Shown: piece by piece, positions 3,720-22,887 of the stretch
Layout: each line of letters starts with the position of its first letter
How positions within the stretch are numbered: the first letter of the stretch is position 1
DNA from: an uncultured Pseudomonadota bacterium
GTDB taxonomy: Bacteria > Pseudomonadota > Alphaproteobacteria > Rhizobiales > Hyphomicrobiaceae
Reading direction: 5' to 3'
Assembly (NCBI GenBank): GCA_963786775.1
Contig: CAWBAM010000010.1
Coordinates: 18,806 to 82,805 of the forward strand
DNA length: 64,000 bases
Made by a program: the position numbers and the translations under genes
Notes under the pieces: model-generated
Database searches by the model: none
What the model was told of the DNA's origin: nothing
What the model saw: only the letters and a program-made list of their open reading frames with translations

Positions 3720-5736
3720 GTGGGCGATCTGGTCATTCACGCCGACCATGGGCTTGGCCGGTACGAGGGGCTGACGACACTCGATGCAGACGGAACGCGG
3801 GACTTCTTCACCATTGCTTACCGCGACGGCAAGGTGCTCGTGCCCGCCGAAAACGCTGACCTGCTGTCTCGCTACGGTGCGGCGGAGACGGCGATCCGCC
3901 TTGATCGCCTCGGCGGCAAGGCTTGGCAGACCCGCAAGGCGCGACTGAAACGGCGCATCGGCGCCATCGCGCTCCGCCTGATCGGAATTGCAGCGGCCCG
4001 TGAGCTGGCTACGGCGCCGGTTCTTAAGCCTGATCCTGCCGCTTACGAGCGCTTTTGTGAGGGTTTTCCGTACGAGGAAACTCCCGACCAGGCTCAAGCC
4101 ATTGCTGCCGTGCTGGATGATCTCGTCACGGGCAAGCCGATGGACCGTCTGATCTGTGGCGACGTCGGATCCGGCAAGACGGAAGTGGCTCTCAGGGCAG
4201 CCTTCGTCGCGGCGATGGCGGGCTGGCAGGTTGCCGTCGTGGCGCCAACCACTCTGCTATCCCGCCAGCACACCGAGACATTCCGCAAGCGCTTCGCCGG
4301 CTTTCCGGTGACCATCGCCCAAGCCTCCCGCCTCGTGCGCGGCAAGGAGCTCCGCGATGTTCTGGCGGGCCTCGAGTCCGGCGCCATCCACATCGTCATC
4401 GGAACCCATGCCCTGCTTTCGGAATCGGTCAAGTTCGCAAAGCTTGGGCTCATCATCGTCGATGAGGAGCAGCGGTTCGGCGTCCGACACAAGGAGCGGC
4501 TGAAGCAGCTTCGCGAGGGGGTGCACGTGCTGACCCTCACGGCGACTCCCATTCCGCGCACGCTCCAGTTGGCACTATCCCTGGTCCGCTCTCTGTCCCT
4601 CATCGTCACGCCGCCAGCGGGGCGGCGGCCGGTTCGCACCACCGTCTGCGAGATGGACCCGGCTCGTATCCGAGAAGCACTGATCGCCGAGAAGGAGCGC
4701 GGCGGACAGAGCTTTTACGTCTGCCCCCGTATTCGCGATCTTGCTGTGATAGCGCGAATGCTGGAGCGCGAGGTGCCGGAAGTGAGCTTCGTGCGTGCTC
4801 ACGGCCGCATGTCGGCGTCGGAGCTCGACCGGATCATGGATCGATTTCTCGCCGGGCACATCGACGTGCTGCTGTCGACGACAATCATCGAGTCCGGCCT
4901 CGACATACCCTCAGTGAACACAATGATCGTGCACGATGCGCACCGGCTCGGTCTCGCCCAGCTCTATCAGCTTCGCGGCCGCATCGGACGCGCGGGCGTC
5001 GAGGCGCACGCCTATTTGACCATTCCACCGGGCATAGAGCTGACCGACGCGGCACGCCGCCGCCTCGAAGCGTTGGCAAAGCTCGACCCAGTCGGAGCAG
5101 GCTTCAACCTCGCCAGCCACGACCTGGACATCCGCGGCGCCGGCAACCTCCTGGGCGAGGAGCAGTCCGGCCATCTCCGGGACCTTGGCTTCGATCTCTT
5201 CCAGACAATGCTGAAGCGCGCCGTTGAGGCGCTGCGCAACGGAGAGCAGCCGGACCTGGACATTTGGGCCCCGCGCATCTCGCTTGGCCTGACGATAGGT
5301 ATCCCCGAAAACTACATACCCGACCCGATCGAGCGCGCGGAAATCTATTGGGAGTGCGCGCGGCTCGAAACGGAGGACCAGATTGCGCAATATGCTGGTG
5401 AGCTTGCGCAGCGCTACGGCCCTCTTCCGCGCGATGATACGGCGCCTATTTGCGCTGCTCCGCCTGAAGCAGCTGTGCCGGGAGGTGCACGTCGCAGAGC
5501 TCAATGCTGGGCCGAAAGGCGCGGTGCTAACGTTCCGTCCTGGAACGCCTGTCCCGCGCCAGCTTCCGCTCTCGCGCAGGATCGAATGGCGGAAGAACAG
5601 GCGGATTGTTGTTTCCGCGCAATGGGACGTCCCGCAACGCCGCCTCAAGGGCGTGGCCAGCCTTCTGCTCCAGCTGAGGCGAGCATTCTCACAAGTTGCC
5701 CGAGCGACACCGGAGCCCGCCAGTAGCGCGACCTGA
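3720..5736 (+). CDS. mfd: Mfd/TRCF-like translocase lacking the N-terminal UvrB-homology module (frameshift ~5435)
   Basis: Begins at CarD-like RID (GDLVIHADHGLGRY); MDRLICGDVGSGKT, DEEQRFG, TATPIPRT, QLRGRIGR, DLDIRGAGNLLGEEQSGH; TRCF C-terminus continues in ORF 5383..5736. Confidence 0.85.
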
Positions 5737-5742
5737 TTAGCC

Positions 5743-8002
5743 TCAGGACACGAGCTCGCTGCACTGCGTGTTGAGGGTTGCGAGGTGGCGGCTCAAGGCC
5801 TCGGCCGCCGACAGCCGCTCACGCAGGGTCTCAAGGCGCTCAGCGCTGCTCATCTCGTCTTGTGACCGCGCCTCGCGGGCGTCCAGAAGCTGCTTGGCCT
5901 GGGCGATGTGCGTTTCGCTCTGGGCGCGCAGGGCATCGATCACTGCCACCGCAATCGCGGTGGCCCGATCGGCCATATCGCTGGTCGCGCGCTGCAACTC
6001 GTTGCTCGCCAGCCGGATGACCTCGTCGATGGCCGGCATGAACTCCTCAATCAGCATGCGCTCCAGCTCGGCCGCATGCTCCTCCTGGGTCCGGCTGCGG
6101 GACCAGCCCATCAGCGATCCTGGCGCCGCGAGGTCCAACGCGATCGAATCCTCGATGGGCACGCGCACCGAGCTCGGCGGAAGGACCGGCGCCGGCGCCT
6201 CCGGAAGATCGAGCTCGGGAGACCGGCGGAGCATCGTTTCACGCAGAGCGGGAAATACGTTGTATGTCGTCTCCGCAAGCCGCTCCTCGACGGCGCTACG
6301 GGCCGAATAGAGCTCCGCCTCTACGCGCTGGCGCAGAGGCTTCGTGTGGCAGCGCCAATGCCGGCGGGCTTCGCCTTCCGCAAACGCCTGCATGAGCCGC
6401 TGGCCTTCGGCCTTTGCGTACTCCTCCAGAATCTCAGCCAACCTGTCGTAGATCCGCGTCCGGTGCTCAGCCGTGACCTCGTTCAACAGGTTCTGGAAAC
6501 CTGCCAAGTTCCGCTCCAGCTCGCCGGCGACAGATTGAATTCGGGCCAGCTCGGACTGCACGTCCTTGAGCTCCCGATCGTTTCTGCTGTGAGCACCGTG
6601 CTCCGAGATGATGGCGAGCTTGACCATCTCCTCCCGAACGGCGGCTTCGTTGACCTGCGACAGCTCTGCGAAGTAGGCGGCGATCTGCCGGATCAGATGC
6701 GCGCTGTGGCTGCGCAGCAGGAGCTTCGTCAGCTCCCGCCTTAGCTCCGGGAACCCGGAGCAAGTAGACAGAATGCGCGCCTGTTGACCGTTCGGCATCT
6801 CCTCCGATGGCCCCGACTGCCCATCGTTCTTGACCTCCACCGGCCGGAGAGCCCCCTTCAGCTTGGCATAGGCTATCAAAGCAGGGGCAATGTCGCCGCT
6901 CGAACTCCTCGTTGCGGGAAAGCGCCTGCGCCGCCCACTTCGAGCTTCCGGCGACCACGGGAATGTCGACTGCAGGAAACTCGCGTGCGAGCGTCTCGCG
7001 AACGCGCGACACGATATTGCGGACATCGGCTGCGGGATCGCGCAACTCGTCGACATTGTCGATGAAGATGAGAATGCGATCGCGATGCAGGCCGCGGAGA
7101 ATTCTGAGCGTCGCAAGCTCGACGGTCGACAGCGGCTGGCGTGCGCTCAGGACGACCACATAAAGCTCGGCCGGCTCGAGCGAGTGCCGTGTGATTTCGT
7201 CCCGAACCATGAACGGGTCGTTGATGCCGGGCGTCGCGATGATGGTAACCGGGAACTTGAATGGCCCGCTGGGTAACCAGATGTCTGCTGCCTTAGTGAT
7301 GTCGGCGTATTGTCCCGGCCCATCCGAATTCTCGGCAGCACTGCTGCCAGGAGAAAGATACCTGGCGAGCGTTTCCTTCGAGACGGTCTCATAACTGTGC
7401 TTCGCACCCAGCAGGTCCACGAAGTTGCTGCCAAGGCGCAGTTCCGCGCGCTGGCGCAGCGCATCGACATGCCGTTGCAAAAGCTGCGGCTCGAAACCTG
7501 GCACGAGCTGGGCCGTCAGCTCCCGGATTCGGCTATCGCCCGTCGCGAGCTGACCCCAATCGTCTTTCTCGAAGAGCTGGAATTCGGCGGCAGTATTCTC
7601 AGGAGCCGCTGTTGAGCCGAAATGCAACCGCACCACCGCGGTTGTCCAAGGGCTCAGGTCCGATGGCAGAAGATCCGCCTGCTCAGTGAGAGCGCCGATG
7701 AAGGTCATCTGCCGGGACTTCACTTGCCCGATGACAGCGATGCGGCAGACTTGATGCGCGAGCACCCGCATCGCATCCCGGACGAAGGTTGCACCGGGAT
7801 CGGCCAGCACGGCGGCCAGCCGCTCTCCCTGCTGCATGAGATCGGCCCGGATGTCCTCAAGCGAAGCCCCAATCGGCTCGGGATCGGGTTCAGCTACGGG
7901 AAAGGGAATAGGCTCGACAATCTGTTCACCGACAGCGTCCGCCTGTGATGTCCTCGTCTCCCCGGGAGAATTCGGCTGAGGCAGCACCCGGATATTCGAC
8001 AT
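5743..8002 (-). CDS. Bacterial dynamin-like protein (frameshift ~6895)
   Basis: RIAVIGQVKS, LLPSDLSPWTTAVVRL, I(A)TPGINDPFMVRDEIT, YVVVLSARQPLS, then a long helical C-terminal region. Confidence 0.75.
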
Positions 8003-8447
8003 GTTCTCCTCCGCCTCTCTCAACTGACAGGCCAGGCATCCCTCAGCGCGCGGCCGACATCGCGGCGCGAATGGCTGGGCAGCCGTCGCCTTGCCGCGTC
8101 TTGCGCTGCATCTTCAGGAGGTCGAGAGTGAAAGTGTCTGGCGGTGGCATCCAAATCCAGGCAGGCCGGATCGGCAAGTCTCGAAAACTCCGACCACGGA
8201 CGCTCCTGACTAACCACACGCCACCCCCCGGACGAGTCTGTTATTGAGCCGGTCAAACGATTGTTGCCGACTGTCCCCCTTTGGGACCGGTTACTCTTGG
8301 AACTGTAAATGAACCGTAAATTGTGGCGTGGGCGTGGAGAATAGCAACAAGTGCAGCCGTCTTCTTATCAGTTGTCGGATCGGGAGGTTCTTCTCAAACT
8401 CTGCGCTATGCCATCTGCCGTTGAAAAACGCCGCTTTCTATCACGCA

Positions 8448-12778: not shown

Positions 12779-14446
12779 ATGACCCGCATCGACAACACCC
12801 GCGTCATCCGCGCCCCGCGTGGTCCTGATATCTCCGCAAAAAGCTGGCTCACCGAAGCCCCGCTACGCATGCTGATGAACAATCTCGACCCCGAAGTCGC
12901 CGAGAAGCCGAGCGAGCTTGTCGTCTACGGCGGTGTGGGGCGGGCAGCCCGCGACTGGGAGAGCTTCGATCGTATCGTGGCAGCCCTCCGCGATTTGGAG
13001 CCGGATGAGACGCTGCTCGTCCAATCCGGCAAGCCTGTCGGCATCTTTCGCACGCATGCCGACGCACCTCGCGTATTGATCGCCAACTCGAACCTGGTTC
13101 CCCATTGGGCCACCTGGGATCACTTCAACGAGCTCGATCGCCGTGGACTGATGATGTACGGCCAGATGACCGCGGGCTCCTGGATCTACATCGGCAGCCA
13201 GGGCATTGTTCAGGGTACCTACGAAACATTCGCCGAGATGGGGCGGCGGCACTACGGCGGAAATCTCACCGGCAAATGGATTCTCACAGCGGGCCTTGGC
13301 GGCATGGGCGGTGCACAGCCTCTCGCGGCCGTCATGGCCGGCGCCTCGCTGCTCGCCGTCGAATGCCAGCCGAGCCGCATCGAGATGCGCCTGCGCACCG
13401 GCTACCTCGATGTCCAGGCCACAGACCTCGACGAGGCCCTGCGCATGATCGAGCAGTCCTGCAAGGAAAGGAAGCCCCTGTCCGTGGGCCTGCTCGGCAA
13501 TGCCGCCGACGTCGTGCCGGAGCTGGTCAGCCGTGGCGTGCGCCCGGACGCCGTCACCGACCAGACCGCGGCACACGACCCGGTCAACGGCTACCTGCCG
13601 AAGGGGTGGACCCTGGCCCAGTGGGAGGAGAAGCGCGCTTCGGATCCCAAGGCTGTCGAGACGGCGGCGAAACAGTCGATGGCGATCCACGTTCGCGCCA
13701 TGCTCGAATTTCACCGTGCCGGCGTGCCCACGTTCGACTACGGCAACAACATCCGGCAGATGGCCAAAGACGAAGGCGTTACTGATGCGTTCGATTTTCC
13801 CGGTTTCGTTCCCGCCTATATCCGCCCCCTTTCTGCCGCGGAATCGGACCGTTCCGCTGGGTGGCCCTGTCGGGCGATCCCGAGGACATCTATCGCACGG
13901 ACGCGAAGGTGAAAGAGCTGCTGCCAGACGACTTCCATCTGCACCGCTGGCTGGAGATGGCTCGCACTCGGATCAAATTCCAAGGCCTGCCGGCACGCAT
14001 CTGCTGGCTTGGGCTCGGCGATCGGCACCGGGTTGGCCTCGCTTTCAACGAGATGGTCGCTTCTGGCGAGCTGAAGGCGCCCATCGTCATCGGTCGCGAT
14101 CACCTCGACGCCGGCTCCGTCGCCTCACCAAATCGCGAGACGGAAGGGATGCGCGATGGCTCCGACGCCGTCTCGGATTGGCCGATGCTCAACGCGCTGC
14201 TCAACTGCGCATCCGGCGCCACTTGGGTCTCGATCCACCACGGCGGCGGAGTCGGCATTGGCTTCTCGCAGCACGCCGGACAGGTCGATCGTTTGCGACG
14301 GCACCCCCGAAGCCGCACGACGCATCGAGCGCGTCCTGTGGAATGACCCGGCCAGCGGCGTCATGCGCCATGCCGATGCAGGCTACGAGGACGCCATCGC
14401 CTGTGCCCGCGAGCACGGGCTGCGGCTGCCGTTTCTGGAGGCGTGA
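12779..14446 (+). CDS. hutU: Urocanate hydratase (frameshifts ~13830 and ~14285)
   Basis: [60 protein letters not shown]. Confidence 0.95.
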
Positions 14447-14548: not shown

Positions 14549-15905
<1,357 letters not shown>

Positions 15906-15914
<9 letters not shown>

Positions 15915-16070
15915 TTTATGAAGTAGCCACAGATCGACTAGTCGCATCACCTCACCATCACCACCCGGAGGAGCGCCATATAAGGTGAGATATAGTAAGT
16001 AAGGTTGGGCGGTGACATCCGCCAGCGGCTTCTGCTTGGTCAGGACGGGCTTCTCGTACGAGCGCTTCAT
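15906..16070 (-). CDS. RiPP precursor peptide A1 (54 aa as sequenced)
   Basis: MKRSYEKPVLTKQKPLADVTA|QPYLLYLTLYGAPPGGDGE...KSP; YxxPxL RRE-binding motif, Thr at -2; AAGGAGG RBS. Confidence 0.85.
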
Positions 16071-16431: not shown

Positions 16432-16468
16432 AACAAATAACGCCCTCCTGCGGTCCGCAGGAGGGCGT
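16432..16468 (-). terminator. Intrinsic terminator of precursor gene A2
   Basis: 13-bp stem ACGCCCTCCTGCG/CGCAGGAGGGCGT followed by a T-rich tail on the minus strand; homologous to the A1 terminator. Confidence 0.75.
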
Positions 16469-16503
16469 CAGAAGAATAGGCGCTCGAAAGCAGGCCTTCG
16501 TGC

Positions 16504-16620
16504 TTATTCTGCGGTGTCACCGTCCCCAGGAGGAAAACCCGGCGTAATGAACACTTGTGCAGTGACGTCCACCAGCGGCTTCTGCTTGATCAGGACAGGC
16601 ATCTCGTACGAGCGCTTCAT
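16504..16620 (-). CDS. RiPP precursor peptide A2 (38 aa; not in ORF track)
   Basis: Manual translation MKRSYEMPVLIKQKPLVDVTA|QVFITPGFPPGDGDTAE*; AAGGAGG RBS; leader 18/21 identical to A1. Confidence 0.9.
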   Translation of the reverse strand: MKRSYEMPVLIKQKPLVDVTAQVFITPGFPPGDGDTAE

Positions 16621-16989
16621 GTGGATCGCCTCCTTCGTTGGCTGCTAGACACTACCAGAACTACTCCGGCACAATCATACGTTGACTATCTCGCGCGACA
16701 TCAATGTGGCGTTGATGGCAATCGCTTGCCGATAGACGGATAAGTGTCTCTTCGCTGCAACATAGCAAATCATCAGCAGGCGAATGATCTGCCTCCTCTA
16801 AAGGCTTGAAAGCACTTGCATCTATCGAGAATCAGCGCTGATGCAGCCTCCCCTTTGGAGCCCATCGCAAATGTTGTGCACACAGGCGCCGCGCGCATCC
16901 CGGCTCAGTAGCAATCTCCGGTTGTGATGACTAGGATACCCCGTCGCAAGAACTGAAGAAGGGGCACAACGGTGATTTAGGATTTAAGT

Positions 16990-17254
16990 GTGCTGTCGCT
17001 ACCCGAGGGTGTTTCCTGCCAGCCTCTCGGCGAGGGTGAGGGAGCCGTCCTGCTCGTCATAGAGTTCGGGACAACTTTTCACCTGCAACGATACCACCTC
17101 GGCATTTATCGCCGCGCTCGACGGGAAGCGGTCCTTCGCTGATGTCGTGCAAACACTCCTGGAAACCTTCGACGTCTCTCCCGACCGCCTGCGGCAAGAC
17201 TTGATGACCCTCGCTGAGGAGCTGCAGAAGGAGGGCCTTCTCCAGATCCATTGA
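16990..17254 (+). CDS. Stand-alone PqqD-family RiPP recognition element (B1); 1-nt frameshift ~17065; not in ORF track
   Basis: Manual translation VLSLPEGVSCQPLGEGEGAVLLVIE/SGQLFTCNDTTSAFIAALDGKRSFADVVQTLLETFDVSPDRLRQDLMTLAEELQKEGLLQIH*; classic PqqD pattern. Confidence 0.85.
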
Positions 17255-17259
17255 ATCCC

Positions 17260-17712
17260 ATGACAACCCTCAAGAAGCTGCGCTTCAAAGCTGCCCTCTG
17301 GTTGTGGGCCCGGGCGCTCCCGGTCCTGGCATGGAAGCGCAGCCTTCCGTCACTCCTTGCGCTGACAAAGCCACGCGCGGCAGCCCCCTACCAAGGGTTG
17401 CCAGCGCACTACATCGTCCGGCGGGTGAAGAAGTCGACCCGCCGGCCTTGGGTTATGCGCGACCGGCCCTGTCTCCGAGAGGGCATTCTGGCGCTGCGCT
17501 TCTTAAGGCTCGCCGGCTTCGACCCCGCGCTTCACTTCGGGGTCGACCGCCAAAGCGTCAAGCAAGATGTGCTCTCGGCGCACTGCTGGATCGTGCTTGA
17601 TCAGGAGATCATCCTCAATCCGCCAACGCCGACCATGGTGGAAATCCTCATCCACGCGGGTGGCCGACTTGTCCCTCCCGCGCACGCCAACGTCACACTC
17701 TCTCAAGGATAG
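17260..17712 (+). CDS. Lasso B2-type transglutaminase-like leader peptidase
   Basis: PCLREGILALRFLRLAG...LHFGV...SAHCWIVLD, giving the catalytic Cys/His; directly follows the RRE gene. Confidence 0.88.
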   Translation: MTTLKKLRFKAALWLWARALPVLAWKRSLPSLLALTKPRAAAPYQGLPAHYIVRRVKKSTRRPWVMRDRPCLREGILALRFLRLAGFDPALHFGVDRQSVKQDVLSAHCWIVLDQEIILNPPTPTMVEILIHAGGRLVPPAHANVTLSQG

Positions 17713-17724
17713 ATCGGACCCGAC

Positions 17725-18740
17725 ATGGCCAATTGGTTCAATCTGAACGGTGCATTGCTGCGCATCGATGCCGAGGACCCGGCACTCGTGAAACCACTGC
17801 TGATCTACCTCGACGAGCTGAGCATCCAATCGTCCGAGCGAACGCCCGATTTTCGTCTGGTTCTTGAGAGGGGTCTGCCGCAGCCGCCACCTCCGGAAGC
17901 AAAGTTCCTCTATGGCCGGCGCTGGCCCGAAGGATTGGACTGTCAGTACAGCGCGCTAGGGACACGGCGGTTTCTCCTCGTCCCAGAGCAGCTTTCGCTC
18001 GAATATTCAACCCAGGACGGCATCGCCAAGATGCGCGCTGCACCCGGTCATGAGCGCTTTATCGGTGCCACTGCCGGCATTTACGCCATCTACGCCGCCC
18101 TTTTCGCAACCCGGCAGACGCTCATCCACGCTGCGGCTCTCCGCTTACCGCAAGAAGATGCAGCGTTCGTCCTGTTCGCGCCGAGTGGTGCCGGCAAGAC
18201 CACGACCTCGTTGGCATTGGCTCTGCAGGGCTTCGCTCTCCTCACCGACGATGCAACGGTGCTTTCGGAGCGCAACGCGGCGACCGCTGGAACCGAGGTC
18301 TGGGGTCTGCCACGACCCCCCAAAGTGCACCGCCGTACGGGGGAGCTGCTTCCTTCTATTGGCCGGCTGCTCGGCCCTGAATGGAATGCCGAGGACGAGC
18401 AGGGCGTGACTTTGAATGCCCTGAGATCCCAGATGGAGGTGCTGCCGGGGAGAGCTTATCCTCTGAGTAGGGCTCGTATTGCTCGGAGATCGGGTCACAA
18501 GGCGCCCATAGGCTCCGCCCAATGCGGAAGTCCGACCTCTTCGTTCATTTCGTCAGAGACAACCTGTCCTGCACCCAAAACGGCCTGATGGAGGATGATC
18601 TGGCCCGGTACAATGCCTTCGTGCGCGCCGTCGCCTCCACGCCAGCCTATGAGCTCAACGTCGGCAGCGACCTCTCCACTCTTGGCGAAGTCATCGCTGC
18701 CGCGCTGAGCCGTGCCGATCAGGCGATCTTGAGCGCCTGA
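17725..18740 (+). CDS. HPr-kinase-like P-loop peptide kinase (frameshift ~18470-18500)
   Basis: IHAAAL...APSGAGKTTTSLALALQGFALLTDD; C-terminus continues in ORF 18522..18740. Confidence 0.85.
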
Positions 18741-19768
18741 CGAAAGAGCTTGCGCCGCCAAGAGCCACGCCCCCGGGCTTGGCTCTGGCCACGGACGACC
18801 AGGCCGGGCGAGAGGAGCTGACCCGGCAGCCTCGAAAACGGCGAAGGCATCAGCTTCCGAGCAAGATTGATACAGCGCGGCTCTCCAAACGTTTTGCCCG
18901 CAAGCTCGAGTGCGCCCGCAACGGCAAGAGTCACGCCGCAACGCTCACAAATGCGCGCCAGCCGATCCTCGTCGATGGAACCGGCGACGCCCCTCGCAGC
19001 CTGCATCACGTCGACGAGGTGCTGCAACCGGTCGAGCTGATGGCCGATCGCGCCATGCGTCGCCGCGACAAACAGAAGTGCCGTTGCATCCGTGCAATCG
19101 CCGTCACCAGCGGCACAAACGTCCTCATAGCCGATCGACATGCTTCCGCGTAGCTTGGGCGAGTGCACGAGATTGCTGTGCACCTCGATCATGACGTCGT
19201 GCCTTGGTGGCAGCAGCCACTTCTGTTCGTGATAGTCCTTGCCTTTGCGATCCTCGAATTCGGAGAGGATGAAGCCCAGAGAGCGCATGATCTCAGCGGC
19301 TTCAAATCGATGCTCCACGGGAATCAGAATATCGGCATCCGTGAAAGTTCTGAGGGACGGCTCTGCATAAAGTCGTTGAGCGAACGCCGCGCCTTTGACG
19401 AGAGCGCCGATGATGCCGCTCGCTGAGAACGCGGCCATGACCCTGCGCGTATGGTAGAGCGTCTTGATTTGAAAGCCCGTCTGGTATGCGACCTGGAGCC
19501 TTGCCGTCTCCAGCTCTGAACGGGCCGCCTTCAGGGCTGTTGTCTCAGAGTCCCCAGCGCGCTTCGCTTCGCGTTCAATGAGGTCGCTCAACCCGCGAAC
19601 GAGAGAGGGCATTACGCCGTGATTATCGGCTGCCGCGACCAGCAGTTTAATCTGCTCTGGCTCGGGTAGCGGAATGTTCGGCGGGGCCCGCCTGACTGGA
19701 TCTGCGAAATGGACGAGAAGGCGCTCACCGTCACGGTTGAGCGGCAAATGAGGCGTCTTTCCCAACAT
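18719..19768 (-). CDS. Uncharacterised nucleotidyltransferase (NTP_transf_5-like)
   Basis: LVKGAAFAQRLYAEPSLRTFTDADILI, IEVH, HLVDV; family typical of paeninodin-type clusters. Confidence 0.82.
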   Translation of the reverse strand: MLGKTPHLPLNRDGERLLVHFADPVRRAPPNIPLPEPEQIKLLVAAADNHGVMPSLVRGLSDLIEREAKRAGDSETTALKAARSELETARLQVAYQTGFQIKTLYHTRRVMAAFSASGIIGALVKGAAFAQRLYAEPSLRTFTDADILIPVEHRFEAAEIMRSLGFILSEFEDRKGKDYHEQKWLLPPRHDVMIEVHSNLVHSPKLRGSMSIGYEDVCAAGDGDCTDATALLFVAATHGAIGHQLDRLQHLVDVMQAARGVAGSIDEDRLARICERCGVTLAVAGALELAGKTFGEPRCINLARKLMPSPFSRLPGQLLSPGLVVRGQSQARGRGSWRRKLFRQALKIA

Positions 19769-21063: not shown

Positions 21064-22378
21064 TCAGTTCAACACCCTCACCAGTACTAACGCCAGCACC
21101 GGAAAAGCGGTGACCACCAGGAGGCGTACGATGTCGATGGCGATGAACGGCAAGACCCGCCGGTAGATGGCCGTAATGGGAACGCCCTTGGCAAGGGCGC
21201 CAACTACAAACACGTTGAGGCCGATGGGCGGCGTGACGAGCCCGATGCCAACCACAATCAGCACGAGGATGCCGAACCAGATCGCCGCCTCCTCGGCCGG
21301 CAGCCCGAAATCGAGCGCCGAGATGACAGGAAAAAAAACCGGCAGCGTCAGCAAGATCATGGCCAGCTCGTCCATGACGGCGCCAAGGACGATGTAGAGC
21401 GCTAGAAACATGGCCAGAATGGCGAGCGGCGGAAAACCGGAGCTGGCGATCGCCTCCGCCGCATTCGCCGGCAGGCGCGACAGCGCCAGGAAGCTGTTGA
21501 AGACCTCAGCCCCGAGCAGGATCAGGAAGATCATGCCGGTCGTCTCGGCTGTCTGCAGCAGGCTGATCCGGATCTCGGCCAAACCCAATGTTCTTCGGCG
21601 CCACGCCGATGATCAGCATGGCCACGGCGCCGACTGCTGCACCTTCCGTTGGGGTGAACACGCCGCCATAGATGCCGCCGACCACCACCACGGCGACGAG
21701 CACGGCGGGCCATATGGCGCGCCAATGGCCCCGTGCCGTCTCGTCAACCTCCACCGCCGGCGCAGCCACTGGATCGCGGCGAGCAACCCAGCCCAGCACG
21801 ATGCAGTGGAACAGCGTCGCCAAGAGGCCTGGAATGAGCGCGGCCTGGAACAGCTTCACGATGTTCTGCTCTGTGGCGAGGGCATAAACGACAAGGATGA
21901 CGGACGGTGGGATCAAGATCCCGAGCGTGCCTCCGACCGCAACAGTTGCGCCTGCAAGGGCGGGGTCATAGCCGTAGCGCCGCAGCTCGGGCAACGCGGC
22001 CCGCGAGAATGTGGCTGTGGTCGCGACGGACGATCCGCAGATTGCCCCAAACAGTGTCGATGCTCCGATGACGGCCATTCCCAGTCCGCCCTTGCGCCGG
22101 CCGAAAAAACCGGCAGCAGCCCGAAAGAGGTCGGCCGAAAGTCCCGAGCGCTCAGCGAAAGCGCCCATGAGAATGAACAGCGGAATAATCGAAAGCGTAT
22201 AGTTGGCGAACAGATGATAGGGCGTGGACTTCATATAACTGAGAAACGGCGCCAGCCCTATGAATGAGATGTAGCCCACACTGCCAGTGAGCAGCATTGC
22301 TAAGCCGATCGGCATCCGGATGGCGATCAGCAGCAGAAGCACGGCAAAGCCGATGATTGCGGTCGTCGTGCCGCTCAC
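21064..22378 (-). CDS. TRAP transporter large permease DctM (frameshift ~21590)
   Basis: IPLFILMG, GSSVATTATF, GGTLGILIPPS, FTPTEGAAVG, TPPIGLNVFV. Confidence 0.9.
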
Positions 22379-22887
22379 CGCCGGCCCCTCACGAGTTGCA
22401 TCGCCGTCGCCAGGGCGGCGATGGCCAGCAGCAGCGCCATGACGGACGTGGCCGCGATCGCCCAACCGATGGGAATGCCGGACACCATAGTCGTCGTTCT
22501 ATTCGCGATGGTTTCGGACGCGCCGACCCAAAGTCGCCAGGCAAGAAAGATTGCCGTCAGGCCATAAGCCAGGTCCCAAAGGGCATCGAGCAGGTTCCGT
22601 GCCCGGAGCGGTAGCATGGACGTGAACGTACCGACCATGATGTTGCCGCGACGAAGCTGGCAGAACGGCAGGAATGCGAAGGCAGAAATCGCGACCGCGA
22701 TCTGAACCAGCTCGAAATCACCGGGAATGGCGTTGCTGGTCGCCCACCGCATGGCGACGCTTGCGCACACCAGGAACGCAGCGGCGAGAATGATGATGCC
22801 GCCAGCCAGCGCCAGTTTTTCGGCCGCGGCGCCCAACAGCCGAGGTCCGGCTGAACCTGAACTCTCCTCTCCTCGCTCGACAGCCAC
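22375..22887 (-). CDS. TRAP transporter small permease DctQ
   Basis: 4 TM helices, IPGDFELVQ, GNIMV; GTGA overlap with dctM. Confidence 0.85.
   Translation of the reverse strand: MAVERGEESSGSAGPRLLGAAAEKLALAGGIIILAAAFLVCASVAMRWATSNAIPGDFELVQIAVAISAFAFLPFCQLRRGNIMVGTFTSMLPLRARNLLDALWDLAYGLTAIFLAWRLWVGASETIANRTTTMVSGIPIGWAIAATSVMALLLAIAALATAMQLVRGRR

What the first reader, a model, noticed from the sequence alone, without database searches (positions are those of the whole stretch)
16504..16620. Unannotated 38-aa precursor A2 whose core is incompatible with lasso topology
The predicted core after DVTA is QVFITPGFPPGDGDTAE. Positions 7-9 are G-F-P, and the first acidic residue is D12, whereas lasso rings close on Asp/Glu 7-9. 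A1 likewise has no acidic residue at 7-9. Both cores start with Gln (possible pyroglutamate cap) and share PPG(G)DG. Thr5 and Thr15 are candidate phosphoacceptors, but there is no C-terminal Ser, which is the site paeninodin-type kinases use.
Basis: partly seen in the sequence, partly recalled or inferred. Interest (0 to 1): 0.8.

Follow-up and report, generated by a model that had tools for sequence, protein, structure and literature searches.

The report
Linear, cyclase-less lasso-type peptide precursor
The 38-residue ORF is a real, conserved precursor peptide that uses lasso-type leader recognition and cleavage but cannot form a lasso, and it most likely matures into a short linear phosphorylated peptide, an alphaproteobacterial variant of a peptide class first described in 2026.

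Summary
Window 16620..16504 (-) encodes a 38-aa peptide (P0001) with a strong RBS and an intrinsic terminator. Its leader is lasso-type: Y-17, P-14, L-12, L-6, T-2 and A-1. The 17-aa core has G-F-P at positions 7-9 and its first acidic residue at position 12.

The interpretation also holds. The divergent cassette is PqqD/B1, B2 protease, HprK-like kinase and a PF14907 nucleotidyltransferase, with no cyclase. No full-length Asn-synthase-type gene exists in this genome or in a same-genus relative.

The cassette recurs in 16 of 400 Hyphomicrobiaceae genomes and about 50 metagenome proteins, never beside a cyclase. Of 26 related cores, 10 have no Asp/Glu and four are only 7-8 residues long. All keep one Ser/Thr, usually hydrophobic-Ser/Thr-Pro/Gly at core positions 2-7. 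In A2 this is Thr5.

A2 is under purifying selection (6 synonymous, 0 nonsynonymous changes against a 94% identical allele).

The frameshifts in B1, the kinase and A1 look like assembly indels.

The closest known systems are the linear polyphosphorylated peptides of Bacillota (Popov 2026, core Ser3) and Bsf lasso peptides (BsfK, Ser3). Here B2 replaces the SpI-like peptidase and there is no exporter. This scan has already noted similar cyclase-less cassettes in other phyla.

The parts
16504..16620 (-). A2 precursor gene (38 aa, P0001). Leader is residues 1-21, core is residues 22-38. Candidate modified residue is Thr26, which is core Thr5.
16629..16636 (-). Shine-Dalgarno sequence GAAGGAGG of A2
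   Evidence: read directly from the sequence
16438..16470 (-). Intrinsic terminator of A2 (15-bp stem followed by a T-run)
15906..16070 (-). A1 precursor gene. The leader is intact. In this assembly the core is garbled by +1/-1 indels and a 14-nt gap relative to the 48-aa allele in L053.
15842..15873 (-). Intrinsic terminator of A1
16990..17254 (+). B1 (PqqD-type RiPP recognition element). A 1-nt insertion near 17066 splits the frame in the window. The 94% identical L053 allele is intact at 93 aa.
17251..17712 (+). B2 transglutaminase-fold leader peptidase. Cys74 and His111 are invariant in 10 homologues.
17725..18740 (+). HprK-like peptide kinase (K). The frame shifts between about 18468 and 18495 in the window. 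Both pieces are 99% identical to the intact 337-aa P0042.
18719..19768 (-). PF14907 (NTP_transf_5) nucleotidyltransferase (N). It is convergent with K and overlaps its 3' end by 22 nt.

Best explanation
A2 is a functional precursor of a linear, non-lasso RiPP. It is made by a cyclase-less derivative of the phosphorylated-lasso machinery. The inferred steps are as follows. (1) The PqqD-type B1 binds the YxxPxL leader. (2) The HprK-like kinase, probably helped by B1, phosphorylates the single conserved hydroxyl residue of the core. That residue lies in a hydrophobic-Ser/Thr-Pro/Gly motif and is Thr5 in A2. (3) The B2 cysteine protease cuts after Ala21, releasing a 17-residue peptide that starts with Gln. 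(4) The PF14907 nucleotidyltransferase may add a further group to the phosphate, as PsmN does with hexose in pseudomycoidin. No macrolactam ring is made. What is shown here: the gene set, the lack of a cyclase, leader and core conservation, and purifying selection. What is inferred: phosphorylation, its site, the order of steps, and the role of N.
For: Cassette identity: B2 matches NF033537 at 52 bits (cut-off 33) and Transglut_core3, and N matches PF14907 at 5.9e-29. Relatives carry an intact PqqD B1. K has a P-loop plus His and Asp-Asp residues that are invariant in 35 homologues, the same residue types that matter in BsfK. The AF2 model of K has pLDDT 90.9 and its best PDB matches are PEP carboxykinases (E 1.8e-9). 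No cyclase: the own genome has only short, weak PF00733 matches (model positions 14-82 of 354), and same-genus G088 shows the same. None of the 12 neighbourhoods listed with Pfam families contains Asn_synthase. Family: 16 of 400 Hyphomicrobiaceae genomes carry the kinase. Leader columns Y-17, P-14, L-6 and A-1 are invariant in 26 of 26 precursors, and T-2 is present in 19 of 26. Cores: 10 of 26 lack Asp/Glu and four are 7-8 aa long. Every core has a Ser/Thr, and seven cores have only one, always Ser. The hydrophobic-[ST]-[GP] motif occurs in 18 of 26 cores against 3.6 +/- 1.7 in shuffled cores. Selection on A2: 6 synonymous and 0 nonsynonymous changes. Among 12 near-identical variants almost only the last 2-3 residues vary. 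Precedent: LppK polyphosphorylates core Ser3 of linear peptides (PMC13381572). BsfK phosphorylates core Ser3, accepts Thr, and is stimulated by B1 (PMC10368454). PsmN is needed for hexose on the phosphate (PMC6993621).
Against: There is no biochemical data for this family. K matches HprK-type HMMs only weakly (32.6 bits, cut-off 200). A2 is the only one of 26 cores with Thr rather than Ser at the conserved site, and LppK did not phosphorylate an S3T variant. The Ser/Thr motif was defined after looking at the cores, and its distance from the cut site varies from position 2 to 12. B1 and K are frameshifted in this assembly, so the cassette could be inactive in this strain. There is no exporter in or beside the cassette. 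The genome is only 87.6% complete, so a cyclase on a missing contig cannot be fully excluded.
Confidence: 0.65

Rival explanations
1. The cassette in this genome is a decaying remnant of a lasso or LPP-like cluster. A2 is still an ORF but no mature product is made.
For: In the window, B1 and K each carry a frameshift and the A1 core is scrambled.
Against: The housekeeping genes hutU and dctM are split in the same window, yet both are intact in syntenic relatives. Indels are therefore a property of the assembly. Intact B1 exists at 94% nucleotide identity and intact K at 99% amino-acid identity in independent assemblies. A2 shows only synonymous change. The catalytic residues of B2 and K are conserved.
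Confidence: 0.1
2. A2 is processed by B1/B2 into a linear peptide, but the conserved Ser/Thr is not phosphorylated. One option is direct nucleotidylylation or glycosylation. Another is that K and N act on a different substrate and the motif serves recognition only.
For: K is only distantly related to characterised peptide kinases. A2 carries Thr where LppK requires Ser. Some relatives add GT8, UDP-galactopyranose mutase, a 2OG oxygenase, an AMP-ligase, a GNAT and a carrier protein. A PqqD, HprK-like, PF14907 triad also exists without B2 or a visible peptide, next to sugar-nucleotide genes; this is the HPr-rel-A system.
Against: The P-loop, His and Asp-Asp residues of K are invariant. In every characterised relative the kinase phosphorylates the precursor. 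BsfK accepts Thr.
Confidence: 0.2
3. A2 is a true lasso peptide closed by a cyclase encoded elsewhere, or by a non-canonical ring on Asp12 or Asp14.
For: The leader is indistinguishable from lasso leaders, and B1 and B2 are lasso-type. The genome is 87.6% complete.
Against: No full-length PF00733 gene was found in G000 or in same-genus G088, which is 94% complete. In four other carrier genomes the Asn synthases lie on other contigs or 680 kb away. Ten of 26 related cores have no Asp/Glu and four are 7-8 residues long. From general knowledge, known lasso rings close on residues 7-9.
Confidence: 0.03

Closest known systems
Linear polyphosphorylated peptides (LPP; lppA-K-B-S-D-N) of Bacillota, Popov et al., Nat Commun 2026 (PMC13381572)
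   Same: [quoted passage not shown] Neither has a macrolactam cyclase. Both have a conserved Ser a few residues after the cut site; in LPP this is Ser3, which is polyphosphorylated. The product is linear.
   Different: The leader peptidase here is the lasso B2 cysteine protease, not the SipW-like signal peptidase LppS. There is no MsbA-type exporter. Cores are 7-27 aa against 45 aa in LppA. The rest of the LPP leader motif (HQxIxFET) is absent. The host is Alphaproteobacteria, whereas the paper calls LPPs restricted to Bacillota. A2 has Thr at the site, which LppK did not accept.
Bsf-type phosphorylated lasso peptides of Bradymonadales (bsfA-K-B1-B2-N-C-D; PMC10368454)
   Same: The same B1, B2, K and N parts are present. 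The kinase acts on an N-proximal core Ser (Ser3), is stimulated by B1 and accepts Thr. Ile/Val at -2 occurs in some leaders, as in 5 of the 26 leaders here.
   Different: Bsf clusters have a lasso cyclase and an ABC exporter, and their cores carry the ring-closing acidic residue. This cassette has none of these.
Paeninodin / pseudomycoidin / SyanK-type phosphorylated lasso clusters (PMC6993621, PMC8498205)
   Same: An HprK-like kinase and a PF14907-type transferase serve as tailoring enzymes, and B1/B2 are split.
   Different: Those kinases modify the C-terminal Ser of a lasso precursor, and a cyclase and exporter are present. Only 2 of the 26 cores here end in Ser.
HPr-rel-A system (TIGR04352 HprK-related kinase A + TIGR04353 PqqD), defined in silico only
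   Same: It is a PqqD, HprK-like kinase, PF14907 gene triad without a cyclase. True members (over the family's 200-bit cut-off) were found in 20 of 401 sampled alphaproteobacterial genomes.
   Different: In the one example examined it has no B2 protease and no YxxPxL precursor was seen. The window's kinase scores 32.6 bits against a 200-bit cut-off.

Membership tests
Lasso peptide (RiPP class) | Leader with a YxxPxL motif and Thr at -2, recognised by a PqqD-type RRE | tested here: met
   A2 has Y5, P8, L10, T20 and A21. The same columns are conserved in 26 precursors. B1 homologues match PqqD and lasso_PqqD models.
Lasso peptide (RiPP class) | B2 transglutaminase-fold cysteine leader peptidase | tested here: met
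   NF033537 at 52.4 bits (cut-off 33) and PF13471 at 1.1e-11. Cys74 and His111 are invariant.
Lasso peptide (RiPP class) | ATP-dependent lasso cyclase (Asn-synthase-like, PF00733) | tested here: not met
   No full-length match in the own genome (87.6% complete) or in same-genus G088. None appears in the 12 related neighbourhoods.
Lasso peptide (RiPP class) | Asp/Glu at core position 7-9 to close the ring, followed by a threaded tail | tested here: not met
   A2 has G-F-P at positions 7-9. Only 4 of 26 related cores have Asp/Glu there, 10 have none at all, and four cores are 7-8 aa long.
Linear polyphosphorylated peptides (LPP, Popov 2026) | Core gene set of RRE + HprK-like kinase + NTP transferase, with no cyclase | tested here: met
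Linear polyphosphorylated peptides (LPP, Popov 2026) | SpI-like (SipW-type) leader peptidase LppS | tested here: not met
   The cassette genes give no signal-peptidase match in Pfam. The peptidase present is B2.
Linear polyphosphorylated peptides (LPP, Popov 2026) | MsbA-like export pump | tested here: not met
   The flanks are a FAD monooxygenase and hut genes on one side, and an arginase-family gene and a TRAP transporter on the other. No ABC exporter lies next to the related cassettes.
Linear polyphosphorylated peptides (LPP, Popov 2026) | Conserved Ser shortly after the cleavage site | tested here: inconclusive
   A conserved Ser is present in 25 of 26 cores at positions 2-12, mostly 4-7. 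A2 has Thr5 instead. LppK rejected S3T, whereas BsfK accepted it.
Linear polyphosphorylated peptides (LPP, Popov 2026) | (Poly)phosphorylated linear product | not testable with these tools
   Needs mass spectrometry.
HPr-rel-A system (TIGR04352/TIGR04353) | Kinase scoring above the TIGR04352 cut-off | tested here: not met
   32.6 bits against a cut-off of 200. True members score 224-396 bits.

The most novel reading that the evidence does not exclude
The Hyphomicrobiaceae cassette may define a separate B2-dependent branch of linear phosphopeptides. In this branch the Ser/Thr-Pro motif, embedded in proline-rich cores, would act as a handle for phosphate-linked glycosylation. Some members also carry a prolyl-hydroxylase-type 2OG oxygenase, a GT8 glycosyltransferase, UDP-galactopyranose mutase, and an AMP-ligase, GNAT and carrier-protein set. 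The products could then be small hydroxyproline- or Ser-glycosylated, possibly acylated peptides. These would resemble extensin-type or plant-signal glycopeptides rather than antimicrobials.
Probability: 0.1. Interest if true: 0.8.

Novelty: new variant of a known kind. Interest (0 to 1): 0.45.

Why it matters
Lasso leader recognition and B2 cleavage appear to have been re-used, without the cyclase, in Alphaproteobacteria. The only published linear relatives (LPPs) were described as restricted to Bacillota and use a different protease. The family comparison points to a single conserved Ser/Thr as the likely modification site, which gives a direct and cheap experiment. The cassette is minimal, with four enzymes, one or two peptides and no exporter. 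That makes it a clean system for asking what the widespread PF14907 transferase does to phosphopeptides, which remains unresolved in the paeninodin, Bsf and LPP systems. A2's natural Thr at the site is a built-in test of kinase specificity.

Tried and rejected
- Downstream ORFs on the minus strand after A1 (15894-15292, 15301-14855 and others) gave no Pfam hits. The real genes there are on the plus strand: a FAD monooxygenase and hut genes.
- Sequence search of K and N against PDB chains gave nothing. Only the fold search was informative.
- Literature searches for cyclase-less B1/B2/kinase clusters by keyword found nothing directly. The LPP paper came from the scan's earlier notes and was then read.
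- A word-index protein search with A2 returned only its own 90% cluster, so precursors were collected by six-frame pattern scans of the fetched loci instead.
- L004, L005 and L025 carry the cassette, but no precursor was found in the DNA available. L036 has a leader-like ORF that seems disrupted by transposases.
- A search with the kinase profile over 400 genomes sampled across the class found no full-length member outside the window's own family.
- Complex prediction was not used. An RRE-leader pair would pass by likeness to solved structures, and an enzyme-substrate pair is a poor use of the job.
- I considered moving the cleavage site so that Asp12 falls at position 7-9. I rejected this because of the invariant Ala(-1) and the acid-free or very short cores in relatives.

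Full report
**1. Observation**

The ORF at 16504..16620 on the minus strand is present and translates to the 38 residues quoted in the finding (stored as P0001).
- GAAGGAGG lies 8 nt upstream of the ATG.
- A 15-bp GC-rich hairpin with a T-run follows about 34 nt after the stop. The region folds far better than shuffles, with z = -5.6.
- A second unit, A1 (16070..15906, minus strand), has the same RBS, 18 of 21 identical leader residues and its own terminator.
- With the cut placed after the D-V-T-A leader end, the A2 core has 17 residues. Positions 7-9 are G-F-P, the first acidic residue is at position 12, and hydroxyl residues are at 5 and 15.

**2. Surroundings**

The cassette runs divergently from the two peptide genes.
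- B1 is a PqqD-type gene (16990-17254), split by one extra base near 17066.
- B2 (17251-17712) scores 52.4 bits on NF033537, cut-off 33, and 1.1e-11 on PF13471.
- K is an HprK-like protein (17725-18740) in two frames.
- N is a convergent PF14907 nucleotidyltransferase (19768-18719, 5.9e-29).

The flanks are hut genes and a FAD monooxygenase on one side, and an arginase-family gene and a TRAP transporter on the other. There is no exporter in or beside the cassette.

**3. No cyclase**

- PF00733 finds only short, weak matches (model positions 14-82 of 354) in the window's genome, which is 87.6% complete, and in same-genus G088, which is 94% complete.
- In four other genomes carrying the cassette, Asn synthases sit on other contigs or 680 kb away.
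- Twelve neighbourhoods with precomputed Pfam calls all show PqqD, Transglut_core3 and kinase. PF14907 is adjacent in all of them except two loci broken by IS elements. None has Asn_synthase.

**4. The family**

- The kinase occurs in 16 of 400 other Hyphomicrobiaceae genomes, in 7 of 51 genera.
- About 50 protein clusters turn up in a 5.8-billion-cluster collection, all named hypothetical.
- No full-length member was found in 400 genomes sampled across the class.
- Six-frame pattern scans recovered 26 distinct precursors.

Anchoring the precursors on the Tyr gives these leader columns:

| Position | Residue | Count |
|---|---|---|
| -17 | Y | 26/26 |
| -14 | P | 26/26 |
| -12 | L/F/I | 26/26 |
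| -6 | L | 26/26 |
| -3 | I/V | 26/26 |
| -2 | T | 19/26 (otherwise V or A) |
| -1 | A | 26/26 |

Conservation collapses at position +1.

**5. Cores**

- Ten of 26 cores contain no Asp/Glu, four are only 7-8 residues long, and only 4 have Asp/Glu at positions 7-9. The family cannot be making lasso peptides.
- The one shared feature is a Ser, with Thr only in A2. It is usually in a hydrophobic-Ser/Thr-Pro/Gly motif at core positions 2-7, and once at position 12.
- The motif occurs in 18 of 26 cores against 3.6 +/- 1.7 in shuffled cores, with a maximum of 10 in 2000 shuffles.
- Seven cores have a single hydroxyl residue, and it is always this Ser.
- The motif was written after seeing the data, so the shuffle figure is descriptive only.
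- Only two cores end in Ser.

**6. Quality of the window**

- hutU and dctM are each split into two frames in the window. Both are intact in syntenic relatives.
- An independent JGI contig (L053) is 94% identical over 2.77 kb. It has an intact 93-aa B1 and a 48-aa A1 whose core carries the Ile-Ser-Pro motif.
- The window's A1 differs from it by a +1/-1 indel pair and a 14-nt gap.
- The two kinase pieces are 99% identical to an intact 337-aa protein, P0042.
- The frameshifts are therefore most simply assembly indels, though a strain-specific defect is not excluded.
- A2 itself is unaffected. Its exact sequence recurs on at least 6 contigs. All 6 nucleotide differences from the L053 allele are synonymous (P about 2e-4 if neutral). 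Near-identical variants differ almost only in the last 2-3 residues.

**7. Enzymes**

- B2 keeps an invariant Cys74 and His111.
- K keeps His134, the G-x-G-K-T P-loop and an Asp-Asp pair across 35 homologues. These are the residue types shown to matter in BsfK.
- The AF2 model of an intact homologue has pLDDT 90.9. Its best PDB matches are PEP carboxykinases, with E 1.8e-9 and TM about 0.54. From general knowledge, not tested here, the HPr kinase catalytic domain belongs to the same P-loop fold group.

**8. What is known**

- Paeninodin-type kinases and SyanK phosphorylate the C-terminal Ser of lasso precursors (PMC8498205).
- PsmN, a PF14907-type protein, is needed for hexose on the phosphate (PMC6993621).
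- BsfK phosphorylates core Ser3, is stimulated by B1 and accepts Thr (PMC10368454).
- Popov et al. 2026 (PMC13381572) described linear polyphosphorylated peptides in Bacillota. [quoted passage not shown] Core Ser3 is polyphosphorylated, S3T is not accepted, and the family is said to be restricted to Bacillota.
- The present cassette has the same logic, but with the lasso B2 protease, without an exporter, and in Alphaproteobacteria.
- A related PqqD, HprK_rel_A, PF14907 triad without B2, the HPr-rel-A system, is found over the family's cut-off in 20 of 401 sampled alphaproteobacterial genomes. One of the genomes in those two class-wide searches (G640) is unpublished; no claim here rests on it alone.
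- Earlier notes of this scan report similar cyclase-less cassettes in many other genomes, including B2-type ones in Gemmatimonadota. I did not compare those sequences.

**9. Mechanism and verdict**

- The most likely sequence is: B1 binds the leader, K phosphorylates Thr5, B2 cuts after Ala21, and N may decorate the phosphate. The product is linear.
- I put about 0.85 on 'genuine non-lasso precursor' and about 0.55 on 'Thr5 is phosphorylated'.
- The finding is correct. It is best filed as a new variant of a recently described kind, not as a new class.

Noticed in passing
window 12779-14346 and 21064-22465: hutU (Urocanase N and Rossmann domains in one frame, the C domain in another) and dctM (two overlapping ORFs) are both split by frameshifts. 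Both genes are intact in syntenic relatives. This assembly carries frequent indels, so any single-gene 'truncation' in this window needs caution.
   Followed up: partly
window 15906-16070 (-), compared with L053:1339-1485: The A1 core as read in the window is an artefact or a mutant. A 94% identical contig encodes a 48-aa A1 whose core contains the family's Ile-Ser-Pro motif. The window has compensating +1/-1 indels and a 14-nt gap.
   Followed up: yes
L006:8793-10377 (-), uncultured Hyphomicrobium MAG: Five tandem precursor genes share near-identical leaders. Their cores are hypervariable, 13-16 aa long, and each has two Cys plus the conserved Ser. This suggests disulfide-bridged variants of the same product.
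   Followed up: no
JGI 3300056388 contigs (no DNA held): Some cassettes are extended by a 2OG-Fe(II) oxygenase (PF13640), a GT8 glycosyltransferase, UDP-galactopyranose mutase, an AMP-binding enzyme, a GNAT and a PP-binding protein. L004 and L005 also have an AMP-ligase and a GNAT. These are possible extra tailoring steps.
   Followed up: no
L051 (G645:C1:89000-104000), 5713-8088 (-): A true HPr-rel-A system (TIGR04353 PqqD, TIGR04352 kinase, PF14907 transferase in a row) sits beside galE and a DegT-type aminotransferase. No B2 protease and no YxxPxL peptide were seen.
   Followed up: partly
G000:C16:12802-13359: The window's genome has a second HprK-family match (82 bits to TIGR04352, model positions 94-280, in a 420-aa open frame) elsewhere. 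It is probably the housekeeping HPr kinase homologue.
   Followed up: no
window 16972-16980: The GTG start used by B1 in L053 is followed by TAG in the window where L053 has CAG. The window's B1 must therefore start at the GTG at 16990, giving an N-terminus 6 residues shorter.
   Followed up: no
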